DNA from: a virus
Taxonomy: Duplodnaviria; Heunggongvirae; Uroviricota; Caudoviricetes
Virus record (IMG/VR): IMGVR_UViG_3300031555_002005
Direction: 5' to 3' (one strand)
DNA: 17,297 nt
The position numbers were made by a program, and so were the translations under genes. The first letter of the stretch is position 1. Each line of letters opens with the position of its first letter. Under the pieces are notes generated by a model. That model had not been told where the DNA came from. It saw only the letters and a list, made by a program, of their open reading frames with translations, and did not search any database. Shown here piece by piece: positions 4,760 through 6,405 of this stretch.

Positions 4760-4775
4760 ACAGTACAAAATTAAT
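4760..4775 (+). promoter_or_regulatory. ACARYACAAAATTAAT motif, copy D
   Basis: ACAGTACAAAATTAAT 5 nt after the stop at 4754, abutting structured element 1. Confidence 0.7.
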
Positions 4776-4840
4776 GAACCTATAACCAGTGGGGCTAGGC
4801 AATAAGTCTAGCCCTATTATTATGGGCTCATACCCAGTAA
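4774..4840 (+). ncRNA. Intergenic structured RNA element, copy 1
   Basis: ATGAACCTATAA/TTATGGGCTCAT lower stem with an A.C mismatch; 13-bp upper stem; downstream CCCAGTAA. Confidence 0.7.
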
Positions 4841-4863
4841 TTCCCCAGTGAGGAGGTAGAACT

Positions 4864-5010
4864 ATGTTCTATTATGATGTACAAACCAAAGACGGACGCA
4901 ATCACTGTGGCTGTCGTGAATCTAAAGAAGAGGTACAAGAAGCCCTTGTATACTTTGAACTAACCTATGATAACCCGGACGTTGTAAGTGTCCGTGTATA
5001 TGAAAAATAA
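4864..5010 (+). CDS. Small hypothetical protein (48 aa)
   Basis: GAGGAGG RBS; MFYYDVQTKDGRNHCGCRESKEEVQEALVYFELTYDNPDVVSVRVYEK. Confidence 0.75.
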   Translation: MFYYDVQTKDGRNHCGCRESKEEVQEALVYFELTYDNPDVVSVRVYEK

Positions 5011-5029
5011 TAATCAAGAGGTGACAACT

Positions 5030-5137
5030 ATGCTCCATACCCGTAGAACCCGGCTGAATCAGCTCATCACTTTTGCTCAAATGATTGCTATTACTGCAAT
5101 CTCCGTGTTCACCATGATGGCAATGGCATTGCTGTAA
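5030..5137 (+). CDS. Small membrane peptide (35 aa)
   Basis: GAGGTG RBS; basic N-terminus then a single hydrophobic helix: MLHTRRTRLNQLITFAQMIAITAISVFTMMAMALL. Confidence 0.6.
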   Translation: MLHTRRTRLNQLITFAQMIAITAISVFTMMAMALL

Positions 5138-5196
5138 CCTCAACCCGACATCTCAGGTAATGACACAACTATATTCAAATAGGAGTGTGATTTACT

Positions 5197-5559
5197 ATGA
5201 AAAAGTATCAATACCGTATCAATGAAAGAGTGCTTGCATTCGACCAAGGTGACTGGATTATTCCGGGCACAATCACCGAGAAAGACCACAATATGTATCG
5301 TGTAGAATACGACTGTGGTGGCTATGACTGGTTACTCTGCGAAGAAATCAGACCATTAGAATATCATGTAGGTGACTATGTAAAGTCACTAGATGGTATA
5401 GGCAGAGTCGTAAGTATCAATGAGTTCTTCATGAATACCATTGAAGTATCATATGGCAAAGGTTGTGTAAAAAGCTACTATGAAGATGAACTGCAACCAG
5501 TACAGAAACCATCATTATTCACAAGACTATTAGGGAAAGGAGTGTACAAGTATGCGTAA
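5197..5559 (+). CDS. Protein with two tandem SH3/Tudor-like modules
   Basis: Internal repeat YxIxERVxA..GxI..YxVxY..xEEIRP and YxVGDxVxS..GxV..xEVxY..xEDELQP. Confidence 0.7.
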   Translation: MKKYQYRINERVLAFDQGDWIIPGTITEKDHNMYRVEYDCGGYDWLLCEEIRPLEYHVGDYVKSLDGIGRVVSINEFFMNTIEVSYGKGCVKSYYEDELQPVQKPSLFTRLLGKGVYKYA

Positions 5560-5788
5560 GACTTATGAAATCTGGGATGTAGATACAAACGAAATGCTTG
5601 TAGACAACTTGACCTTTGACGAAGCAGCTGAACAATGCGAGATCTATACCAAATTCTTTGGAGAAGGCATCTGTGTAGCTATAAGGGAATCCGTTCCTGT
5701 ACGTAAGCACAAAACCTATGCCCAAGAGTATAAGGAAGCTTGGATTAACTACTTTGCAGAGTTACAGGCAATGGGCAACCTGTATTAA
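5552..5788 (+). CDS. Hypothetical protein (78 aa)
   Basis: GGAG RBS; 8-nt overlap with upstream gene. Confidence 0.8.
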   Translation: MRKTYEIWDVDTNEMLVDNLTFDEAAEQCEIYTKFFGEGICVAIRESVPVRKHKTYAQEYKEAWINYFAELQAMGNLY

Positions 5789-5801
5789 GGAGGAAATGAA
5801 A

Positions 5802-6053
5802 ATGAAAAAAATAATCATTGCATTGTTGGGAGCAACTATGCTCCTGACTGGATGTGCAAAGCAAGTTGAAAAGGAAATGTACATAGTTTCCGGGCACTAC
5901 TACGCAAATGGTGAAATCATCACTGAAGACGGAAACATCTGGGGCTATACAAGCGAAACCTTTGATGATGACTTCCCTATCAACGTTCTGTTCGACAACA
6001 ACGGAACTGAGACTATCTATGATGACATCATTATAGGCATTGTAAACCAGTAA
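5802..6053 (+). CDS. Lipoprotein (83 aa), acidic mature part
   Basis: AAGGAGG 8 nt upstream; MKKIIIALLGATMLLTG-C: basic N-region, hydrophobic core, LTGC lipobox. Confidence 0.85.
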   Translation: MKKIIIALLGATMLLTGCAKQVEKEMYIVSGHYYANGEIITEDGNIWGYTSETFDDDFPINVLFDNNGTETIYDDIIIGIVNQ

Positions 6054-6115
6054 AACCTATATCAAGCCTTTAACTGCAATGTGGTTAAGGGTTTCATTAT
6101 GGGCTTTATCCCATA
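6051..6115 (+). ncRNA. Intergenic structured RNA element, copy 2
   Basis: TAAAACCTATA/TATGGGCTTTA lower stem with A.C; 14-bp upper stem with 4 G.U; downstream CCCATA. Confidence 0.75.
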
Positions 6116-6133
6116 GAAATGGAGGTAATCAAT

Positions 6134-6313
6134 ATGACAATGTTTGAACAAAGAGGTGTTGAACGACAATATAGTGCAGACAGTATAACAGAAGCGAAAA
6201 GTGCATTTGAAAAGAGTTGTGAAATCTGTTCAACTCAAGGCAAGTTTGTAAGCTGTGACAAATGTGCAATAGCATACATAAACCAACTTGTAACAGAAAT
6301 GCTTGTCAGATAG
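6134..6313 (+). CDS. Small Cys4 (CxxC..CxxC) protein, 59 aa
   Basis: GGAGGT RBS before ATG 6134; CEIC and CDKC motifs. Confidence 0.8.
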   Translation: MTMFEQRGVERQYSADSITEAKSAFEKSCEICSTQGKFVSCDKCAIAYINQLVTEMLVR

Positions 6314-6314
6314 G

Positions 6315-6387
6315 TAAAACCTATATCGAGCTCACAAGAGAAACCTTTGTGGGCTCTATTATGGGCTTTAACTATATTAACCCATAA
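6315..6387 (+). ncRNA. Intergenic structured RNA element, copy 3
   Basis: Lower stem identical to copy 2; different 12-bp upper stem; downstream CCCATAA. Confidence 0.75.
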
Positions 6388-6405
6388 CGGAGGTAAAAGA
6401 AATCT

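What the first reader, a model, noticed from the sequence alone, without database searches (positions are those of the whole stretch)
4774..6397. Three-copy covarying intergenic RNA element with a conserved alternative pairing in front of the RBS
Seen at 4774-4840, 6051-6115 and 6315-6387. Each has a lower stem [4 bp, A.C mismatch, CCUAUA/UAUGGG with a U.G pair], a small internal loop, and a 12-14 bp upper stem of unrelated sequence, rich in G.U pairs. The base covaries (AUGA/UCAU versus UAAA/UUUA). In all three, the 3' strand UAUGGG can instead pair with a downstream CCCA(U)A just before GGAGG, so the two folds are mutually exclusive. Established: T7 and SPO1/SP82 early polycistronic mRNAs carry RNase III stems between genes, and repeated promoter/stem-loop cassettes shuffle genes in some T4-type phages. 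Inference: a processing-triggered switch in which cleavage of the long stem lets a new 5' protective hairpin form and sets stability or translation of each downstream gene. This may be an undescribed RNA motif family and is the best-supported novel element here.
Basis: partly seen in the sequence, partly recalled or inferred. Interest (0 to 1): 0.8.

Follow-up and report, generated by a model that had tools for sequence, protein, structure and literature searches.

The report
Three-strand intercistronic RNA hairpin in phage
Three copies of a conserved long RNA hairpin sit between small genes of an uncultured large phage; they belong to an undescribed family found in about 40 related phage contigs, and they most likely mark where the long message is cut and the downstream piece then capped by a small protective hairpin, though no cutting has been shown.

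Summary
Three co-oriented hairpins lie in intercistronic gaps at 4774-4831, 6051-6108 and 6315-6370. Each has a covarying base, a lower stem CCUAUA/UAUGGG with a U.G pair and an A.C mismatch, a small asymmetric internal loop, and an unrelated 12-14 bp upper stem.

A covariance model finds only these three copies in the window. It finds two or three clustered copies in each of about 40 IMG/VR phage contigs (100-170 kb), and none in Rfam, SPO1 or an Enterococcus phage. Covariation is strong: 92.8% of cells are paired, against 30-52% in slid controls.

The alternative pairing is also conserved. About two thirds of members carry a third box just 5' of the Shine-Dalgarno sequence that complements the 3' strand better than the 5' strand does. 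One member shows a three-way compensatory change. The 3' strand varies only where the box is missing.

The design matches the repeated hairpins of the SPO1 host-takeover module, where RNase III sites are reported, but the sequence differs.

Best reading (0.5): a host RNase III-type processing site whose downstream product refolds into a 5' hairpin next to the ribosome-binding site. Cleavage is not shown. Unmasking of the ribosome-binding site was tested and not supported.

This scan has noted RNase III-like intercistronic hairpin families in other phages before. The third box is the new part here.

The parts
4774..4831 (+). Copy 1 hairpin: basal stem 4774-4777/4828-4831, lower stem 4779-4785/4820-4826, upper 13-bp stem 4788-4800/4806-4818, loop 4801-4805
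   Evidence: (50.2 bits)
4832..4840 (+). Copy 1 third box (ACCCAGUAA), weak complement of the 3' strand. SD GAGGAGG at 4850-4856, start codon 4864.
6051..6108 (+). Copy 2 hairpin: basal stem 6051-6054/6105-6108 (the upstream stop codon UAA 6051-6053 lies inside it), lower stem 6056-6061/6098-6103, upper 14-bp stem 6064-6077/6081-6094
   Evidence: (61.7 bits)
6110..6115 (+). Copy 2 third box CCCAUA, a perfect complement of UAUGGG. SD GGAGG at 6121-6125, start codon 6134 (conserved Cys-rich 59-aa protein).
   Evidence: blocking the 5' strand costs only 1.8 kcal/mol
6315..6370 (+). Copy 3 hairpin: basal stem 6315-6318/6367-6370, lower stem 6320-6325/6360-6365, upper 12-bp stem with a GAAA-containing loop
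   Evidence: the centroid already shows the alternative fold; 67.5 bits
6381..6386 (+). Copy 3 third box CCCAUA. SD GGAGG at 6389-6393, start codon 6406.
   Evidence: (dG -9.1, p 0.02)

Best explanation
Each element is a cis-acting signal in a polycistronic phage mRNA, probably an early one. Transcription first makes a roughly 22-25 bp interrupted hairpin directly after the upstream stop codon. The hairpin has a basal stem, an A.C mismatch, a 6-bp lower stem, a 2x3 internal loop and a roughly 12-bp upper stem. I infer that a double-strand-specific endonuclease, most likely host RNase III, cuts it. Phage SP82/SPO1 and T7 sites with internal loops are cut once, on the 3' side. The upstream message would then keep the upper hairpin at its 3' end. 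The downstream message would start near UAUUAUGGGC, which is now free to pair with the third box (G/A-CCCAUA or GC[C/U]CAAAUA) lying just 5' of the SD. That would put a small hairpin at the new 5' end, next to a strong ribosome-binding site. In Firmicutes this arrangement protects against 5'-to-3' decay. Shown here: the structure, its covariation, its strand specificity, its intercistronic position, the conserved three-strand complementarity, and the shared design with the SPO1 hairpins. Inferred: cleavage, the enzyme, the cut position and the stabilising effect.
For: The structure is real and selected. Covariation in the basal and upper stems is strong: 135 double-change cells against 9-48 in slid controls, and 92.8% of cells paired. 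Diverged members show compensatory changes in the lower stem as well: CCUUUA/UAAGGG, UUCAUAA/UUAUGAA, AUCUAUA/UAUGGAC.

The element acts at the RNA level on the sense strand. 64 of 431 upper-stem pairs are G.U, there is an invariant U.G, GAAA-type loops are frequent, and reverse-strand scores are poor.

The spacing between the two conserved boxes varies from 28 to 51 nt while pairing is kept, which excludes a bipartite DNA site or a promoter.

The position is intercistronic. The upstream stop codon lies 1, 2 or 6 nt before the lower stem in 28 of 34 members, and the SD and start codon follow 15-45 nt later.

The helix length and mid-helix internal loop match the RNase III substrate class. SPO1's host-takeover module holds at least 5 hairpins of the same design (covarying base, conserved lower part, variable 10-11 bp top) between early genes. 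RNase III sites are reported there (PMC3896407, citing Stewart 1998). SP82 substrates with internal loops are cut once, on the downstream strand (PMC1935012).

Third box: the duplex of the 3' strand with the 30 nt before the SD has a median of -6.6 kcal/mol, against -3.6 for 655 control leaders from the same loci (p = 2e-9). The box precedes at least a dozen unrelated genes. It repairs both defects of the lower stem (C-G in place of U.G, G-C in place of A.C). L123 shows a three-way change: AUCUAUA / UAUGGAU / UCCAUA. The 3' strand is invariant where a box exists (22 of 31 consensus members have one) and varies where none exists (1 of 10 variants has one). With the 5' strand removed, 29 of 33 members pair at least 4 nt of UAUGGGC with downstream sequence.

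Each near-complete genome has only 2-3 copies, clustered in a block of small genes after a long non-coding region.
Against: There is no direct evidence of cleavage or of any RNA end. The host is unknown, and the phages encode no RNase III of their own, so the enzyme is assumed. The element shares no sequence with the SPO1 sites, so the link is by design only, and I could not read the primary SP82 papers. The very strong sequence conservation of the lower stem across phages whose neighbouring proteins no longer align could instead reflect a sequence-specific protein. About a third of members lack the third box. In some members the two folds are nearly isoenergetic without any cut, so a trigger other than cleavage is possible.
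Confidence: 0.5

Rival explanations
1. The hairpin is the operator of a sequence-specific RNA-binding protein, phage- or host-encoded (a translational regulator, antiterminator or dedicated endonuclease). The protein would read the invariant lower stem and internal loop. The third box would compete for the 3' strand when the protein is absent or present.
For: The lower-stem sequence and the 3' side of the internal loop are nearly invariant across phages whose flanking proteins have diverged beyond BLAST recognition. There are only 2-3 sites per genome, in front of particular genes such as the Cys-rich 60-aa protein.
Against: Diverged members replace most lower-stem bases with compensatory pairs and still keep the architecture, which argues that pairing matters more than base identity. 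The invariance is explained equally well by the three-way pairing constraint. No candidate binding protein was identified.
Confidence: 0.17
2. The element is a translation-coupled conformational switch that needs no cleavage. A ribosome terminating at the stop codon buried in the stem base melts the 5' strand. The 3' strand then moves to the better-matched third box, and this alters expression of the next gene.
For: The stop codon lies 1, 2 or 6 nt from the lower stem in 28 of 34 members. The two folds differ by a mean of only 5 kcal/mol, and by 0-2 kcal/mol in several members including window copy 2. The centroid of copy 3 is already the alternative fold.
Against: The alternative fold does not change predicted SD accessibility across the family, so no output is apparent. 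Copy 1 and its orthologues have the stop codon 24-31 nt away. A roughly 12-bp upper stem is not needed in this model. SPO1's reported RNase III hairpins also start at the stop codon, so the stop position does not discriminate between the models.
Confidence: 0.13
3. The element is a passive stability or insulation hairpin, for example a barrier to 3' exonucleases or a spacer between cistrons, and is never cut. The downstream box would be incidental leader sequence.
For: The hairpins are stable (-21 to -35 kcal/mol) and lie at the 3' ends of cistrons.
Against: This does not explain the conserved mismatch, wobble pair and internal loop. It also does not explain the enrichment and co-variation of the third box.
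Confidence: 0.08
4. The element is a DNA-level feature: a terminator/promoter cassette of the T4 PeSL type, or a recombination site bounding gene cassettes (attC-like).
For: It has conserved ends with a variable centre, and gene content between elements differs among related phages. Copy 1 overlaps a weak 9/12 promoter-like match.
Against: There is no U-tract and no terminator call at any copy. There are no fixed -35/-10 elements, and box spacing varies from 28 to 51 nt. G.U pairs make the structure strand-specific. The element stays with the leader of the gene downstream of it. The family searches run on the window's ORFs (17 ORFs in all, nine of them of 120 aa or more) gave no recombinase match. 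Copies within one genome have unrelated upper stems, so there has been no recent spread.
Confidence: 0.05
5. The element is an undescribed self-cleaving ribozyme.
For: There are conserved unpaired residues and an alternative pairing.
Against: There is no match to any Rfam ribozyme at E <= 1. There are very few conserved unpaired nucleotides, and the lower stem tolerates wholesale compensatory replacement.
Confidence: 0.03

Closest known systems
Bs-RNase III processing hairpins of Bacillus phages SP82/SPO1 (early mRNA, host-takeover module), with the downstream 5' stabiliser (Hue, Cohen & Bechhofer 1995)
   Same: Several copies lie between small same-strand genes of a large Firmicutes-type phage. 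The stop codon sits at the hairpin base. The base covaries, the lower part is sequence-conserved, there is an internal loop, and the 10-14 bp top is variable (against 61, 73). SP82 RBS mutations shorten the half-life of that mRNA (PMC7509114, citing Hue 1995). That the sequence concerned is a polypurine tract just 3' of the RNase III cut is my recollection of that paper, which I could not read.
   Different: There is no sequence similarity: SPO1 has GGUUGCUAG...CAUGGAGCC, and model R1 finds nothing in SPO1. The SPO1 3' strand carries a GGAG tract and has no third complementary box. Here the 3' strand is not polypurine and instead has a conserved complement next to the real SD. Cleavage is documented for SP82 and not here.
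Phage T7 RNase III sites (R0.3, R0.5, R1, R1.1, R1.3)
   Same: These are intercistronic hairpins with an upper stem, an asymmetric internal loop and a lower stem. The single cut on the 3' side leaves the hairpin on the upstream message (PMC1935012 discussion; otherwise textbook knowledge).
   Different: The host is Gram-negative, the sequences are unrelated, and no refolding of the downstream 5' end into a hairpin is known as a conserved feature.
5'-proximal stabilisers of Firmicutes mRNAs (aprE leader hairpin plus SD; the processed gapA message of the cggR-gapA operon)
   Same: A small hairpin at or near the 5' end, followed closely by a strong SD, is the predicted product here. Own knowledge, plus PMC7509114 for the role of RBS sites in stability.
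   Different: Those hairpins are present from the start or are exposed by RNase Y. Here the hairpin's 5' arm is locked in a longer hairpin until it is released.
Processing- or RNase III-dependent refolding that controls translation (T7 0.3 and 1.1/1.2, lambda cIII and N leaders, E. coli adhE)
   Same: The alternative pairings are mutually exclusive, and their balance is set by RNase III.
   Different: Those cases act by masking or unmasking the RBS. That was tested here and not found.

Membership tests
Phage intercistronic RNase III processing sites (T7 / SP82-SPO1 class) | Lies between cistrons of a same-strand gene array, on the sense strand | tested here: met
Phage intercistronic RNase III processing sites (T7 / SP82-SPO1 class) | Coaxial helix of about two turns (20 bp or more) with a mid-helix internal loop | tested here: met
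   Basal 4-5 bp + 6 bp + 2x3 loop + 9-16 bp (mode 12)
Phage intercistronic RNase III processing sites (T7 / SP82-SPO1 class) | Structure maintained by compensatory change | tested here: met
Phage intercistronic RNase III processing sites (T7 / SP82-SPO1 class) | Cleaved by RNase III in vivo or in vitro | not testable with these tools
   The only RNA run holds contigs of a relative, which give no ends
SP82/SPO1 site sequence family | Conserved GGUUGCUAG ... CAUGGAGCC lower part | tested here: not met
   R1 finds no hit in SPO1. The SPO1 consensus differs.
Any Rfam 15 family (including pistol, hammerhead, twister and known phage motifs) | Covariance-model match | tested here: not met
   No hit at E <= 1 in or near the elements
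Intrinsic terminator | GC-rich hairpin followed by a U-tract | tested here: not met
   No terminator call at any copy. The tail is GGGCUUUAUCCC or similar.
T4-type promoter-early stem-loop (PeSL) cassette | Sigma-70 early promoter at fixed spacing, joined to a stem-loop | tested here: not met
   Only copy 1 overlaps a weak 9/12 match. Box spacing is 28-51 nt.
5'-hairpin plus SD mRNA stabiliser of Firmicutes | Hairpin within a few nt of the 5' end, followed by a strong SD | tested here: inconclusive
   The hairpin is predicted to form once the 5' strand is removed in 29 of 33 members, and it abuts the SD. The real 5' end is unknown.

The most novel reading that the evidence does not exclude
The element is a three-strand, one-way RNA switch. 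The long hairpin forms first. Cutting it (or melting by a ribosome that terminates at the stop codon buried in its base) hands the 3' strand to a deliberately better-matched third box. That builds a protective hairpin at the new 5' end, beside the ribosome-binding site. This would be a processing-coupled 5' cap hairpin, a mechanism not described for phage or bacterial operons, and it would explain why the lower stem is frozen in sequence.
Probability: 0.35. Interest if true: 0.7.

Novelty: new variant of a known kind. Interest (0 to 1): 0.55.

Why it matters
Phages cut long early messages into pieces with different lifetimes, but outside T7 and SP82/SPO1 the signals are hardly known. This family gives a clean, compact and testable case in uncultured, probably gut or rumen, Firmicutes-type phages. 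It has a measurable prediction: the cut creates its own 5' protective hairpin. If that holds, it adds a design rule for post-transcriptional control in organisms with 5'-to-3' exonucleases, and a portable part for tuning operon expression. The evolutionary signature is also useful as a method. Two strands covary freely, whereas a strand with two partners is frozen, and this pattern can be used to detect alternative pairings.

Tried and rejected
- Rfam scan of the whole window at E <= 1: only a spurious retroviral hit elsewhere.
- Megablast of 3900-9000 against cultured phages: nothing.
- No whole genome is held for this window.
- The 265-aa upstream protein gave no relatives through the search for related loci, although a relative exists in G005.
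- Genome contigs pattern scan: the 120 rows shown were chance matches or an unrelated IS-like repeat, with no true member. The scan was truncated, so absence from bacteria is not shown.
- R1 against SPO1 and Enterococcus phage EF1: nothing.
- tblastn of the Cys-rich 59-aa protein against cultured phages: nothing.
- RNase III domain search in three near-complete member genomes: none.
- RNA evidence: one bovine metatranscriptome holds contigs 90-95% identical to parts of 5126-5574 and 6448-6578. It gives no information on ends or on the elements.
- SD-unmasking hypothesis: a first test looked positive, but a stricter constrained test was negative, so it is rejected as a family-wide feature.
- Primary SP82 papers (PMID 7527387, PMC177050) are not held.
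- A literal search for the motif in papers found nothing relevant.
- The SPO1 records NC_011421 and FJ230960 carry no RNase III site annotation, so the 'RS-A to RS-D' labels in earlier scan notes could not be checked.
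Full report
**1. The observation**

The window reads like a fragment of a large phage. Minus-strand genes run up to 2458. A 1.5-kb stretch without ORFs follows, and then a long run of small plus-strand genes with strong GGAGG ribosome-binding sites.

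The three elements lie in intercistronic gaps of that run. Their alignment shows invariant AACCUAUA and AUUAUGGGCU boxes around unrelated central sequence.

- a basal stem of 4 bp;
- an A.C mismatch;
- a 6-7 bp lower stem with a U.G pair;
- a small internal loop;
- a 12-14 bp upper stem.

The two boxes occur in exact form only at these three places.

**2. A family beyond the window**

A pattern scan of IMG/VR gave two populations. Chance matches fold poorly and lie inside genes. About 40 matches fold at -20 kcal/mol or better and are always followed by GGGCUU, an SD and a start codon.

From 26 of these I built a covariance model, R1.
- In the window it finds the three copies (50-68 bits) and nothing else. 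The reverse strand scores below 15 bits.
- In related contigs it finds further, more diverged copies.
- Whole contigs of 148-170 kb (97-100% complete) hold only two or three copies each, clustered within about 2.5 kb.
- The layout is syntenic: a non-coding stretch, a 230-265-aa gene, then small genes separated by elements.

The 170-kb contig G005 is a fairly close relative, with 61% identity in the first gene. Others share the element although the neighbouring protein no longer aligns.

Nearest cultured relatives by protein are Enterococcus and Bacillus phages at 22-34% identity. R1 finds nothing in Enterococcus phage EF1 or in SPO1. Rfam has no match.

**3. The hairpin is a selected, sense-strand RNA structure**

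- On the model-guided alignment, 92.8% of cells form pairs, against 30-52% when partners are slid.
- 135 cells carry changes on both sides, against 9-48 in the slid controls.
- The apparently invariant lower stem also covaries once pattern-independent members are included: CCUUUA/UAAGGG, CCCAUA or CCCGUA with UAUGGG, AUCUAUA/UAUGGAC, UUCAUAA/UUAUGAA, UCCAUAA/UUAUGCA.
- Upper stems are 9-16 bp (mode 12). Loops are mostly 3-5 nt, often GAAA-like. 64 of 431 pairs are G.U. The internal loop is typically 2 nt (UC or UA) opposite 3 nt (YAU or AAU).
- The distance between the two boxes ranges from 28 to 51 nt with pairing kept. This excludes a promoter or a bipartite DNA site. No terminator-like tail is present.

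**4. The third strand**

Downstream of the hairpin, most members carry a box directly 5' of the SD. The forms are G/A-CCCAUA, GUCCAUA, GC[C/U]CAAAUA(A) and ACCCAAUA.

Every form is complementary to the 3' strand UAUUAUGGGC. The longer forms pair through a bulged A and so also use the loop-side UAUUAU residues. That may be why those unpaired residues are conserved.

- *Duplex strength.* The duplex of the 3' strand with the 30 nt before the SD has a median of -6.6 kcal/mol in 33 non-redundant members. It is -3.6 kcal/mol in 655 other SD leaders from the same loci (Mann-Whitney p = 2e-9). 67% of members reach -6 or better, against 12% of controls.
- *Independence from one leader.* The box stands in front of at least a dozen unrelated genes.
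- *Better match.* The box is a better partner than the 5' strand. It replaces the U.G pair with C-G and the A.C mismatch with G-C.
- *Three-way change.* In L123 the 5' strand (C to U), the 3' strand (G to A) and the box (C to U) have all changed together.
- *Frozen 3' strand.* Where the 3' strand keeps UAUGGG, 22 of 31 members have a box. Where it has changed, only 1 of 10 does, and that one is L123. A strand with two partners is frozen; with one partner it drifts with compensation. These counts are not phylogenetically independent.
- *Folding with the 5' strand blocked.* 29 of 33 members then pair at least 4 nt of UAUGGGC downstream, at a mean cost of only 5 kcal/mol. The cost is 1.8 kcal/mol for window copy 2 and 4.3 for copy 3, whose unconstrained fold in this context already shows the alternative hairpin.

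**5. What the switch does**

*SD masking.* I tested whether the alternative fold unmasks the SD. A simple comparison suggested it does. With the two states enforced by constraints, SD accessibility is the same, 0.52 against 0.55 (p = 0.41). Masking of the RBS is therefore not the family-wide output.

What the alternative fold always produces is a small hairpin abutting the SD. That has an obvious meaning only if it lies at a 5' end.

*Stop codon position.* The upstream stop codon lies 1, 2 or 6 nt before the lower stem in 28 of 34 members, that is, inside the basal stem. This keeps open a trigger by terminating ribosomes. The same is true, however, of the SPO1 hairpins.

**6. Comparison with known systems**

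Scanning SPO1's terminal 14 kb for long single hairpins showed at least five repeats between early genes: 7114-7155 on the plus strand, and 12734-12774, 12439-12480, 12233-12273 and 11811-11852 on the minus strand. They share the design seen here:
- a covarying base;
- a conserved lower part (GGUUGCUAG ... CAUGGAGCC);
- an internal loop;
- a variable 10-11 bp top.

What the literature I could read says:
- The SPO1 host-takeover module is reported to contain RNase III cleavage sites (PMC3896407, citing Stewart et al. 1998).
- SP82 substrates have internal loops and are cut once, on the downstream strand (PMC1935012).
- The SP82 RNAs are called non-native targets of B. subtilis RNase III (PMC4838370).
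- Mutating the RBS-like sequence of the SP82 mRNA shortens its half-life (PMC7509114, citing Hue et al. 1995).

I could not read the primary papers. Rfam also has no family for the SPO1 region, so the lack of an Rfam hit says nothing about the class.

The present family therefore works like the SP82/SPO1 and T7 sites but is not a sequence member of either. It differs by carrying a third complementary box instead of a polypurine tract.

The member phages carry no RNase III gene, so a host enzyme would be used.

**7. Verdict**

- The motif family is undescribed.
- The mutually exclusive pairing is supported by comparative evidence.
- The processing step, and hence the switch, remains an inference (0.5).

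Rivals, with confidence:
- a sequence-specific protein operator (0.17);
- a ribosome-triggered switch without cleavage (0.13);
- a passive hairpin (0.08);
- a DNA-level cassette or terminator/promoter (0.05);
- a new ribozyme (0.03).

Earlier notes of this scan describe RNase III-like intercistronic hairpin families in several other phages. The general kind is thus recurrent, and the three-strand feature is what is new here.

Noticed in passing
window 2460-3956: About 1.5 kb with no convincing ORF lies between the divergent gene blocks. Positions 2560-3000 are extremely G/T-rich on the + strand (GC skew +0.50) with repeated short words. A good sigma-A-type promoter candidate (TTGACT, 17 nt with TG, TAATAT) at 3131-3159 would give a roughly 790-nt untranslated leader or non-coding RNA before the first + gene. 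Related genomes also have a gene-poor stretch here. There is no Rfam hit.
   Followed up: partly
window 6134-6313: A small Cys-rich protein (59 aa, M-x-x-F-E-Q-x-G-V ... S-C-x2-C ... C-x2-C-A-I-A) is conserved in 30 IMG/VR loci. It has no Pfam or PHROG family and no homologue in cultured phages. It is preceded by a copy of the element in most of the loci searched with the model, and no hit upstream of it was reported in a few.
   Followed up: partly
window 5796-6053: A small lipoprotein (signal peptide with a lipobox LLTGC) has a weak N-terminal match to the Cor superinfection-exclusion family (phrog_1119, E 8e-5).
   Followed up: no
window 4755-4773, and the orthologous spacers in L026 and L027: The first element of each genome is separated from the stop codon of the roughly 260-aa gene by a conserved spacer (CAACAG[C/U]ACAAAAUUAA). 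All other copies start at the stop codon.
   Followed up: no
L122 (SPO1 NC_011421) 7114-7155 (+); 12734-12774, 12439-12480, 12233-12273, 11811-11852 (-): Five repeated hairpins with conserved GGUUGCUAG ... CAUGGAGCC lie between host-takeover genes. They are not annotated in either SPO1 record and are not in Rfam. They are probably the RNase III sites described in the older literature.
   Followed up: partly
window 5126-5574 and 6448-6578: A bovine metatranscriptome holds contigs 90-95% identical to these stretches. This hints that relatives of this phage live in cattle gut or rumen.
   Followed up: partly
window 1800-2000: A very AT-rich stretch (about 30% GC) with many TATTATTA-type words and several promoter-like matches lies between two groups of minus-strand genes.
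   Followed up: no
Genome-contig loci L129, L168, L169, L176 and others (a Methylococcales MAG): The search pattern hit a multi-copy, identical 64-nt stretch inside what looks like an insertion-sequence transposase gene. It is unrelated to the element.
   Followed up: no
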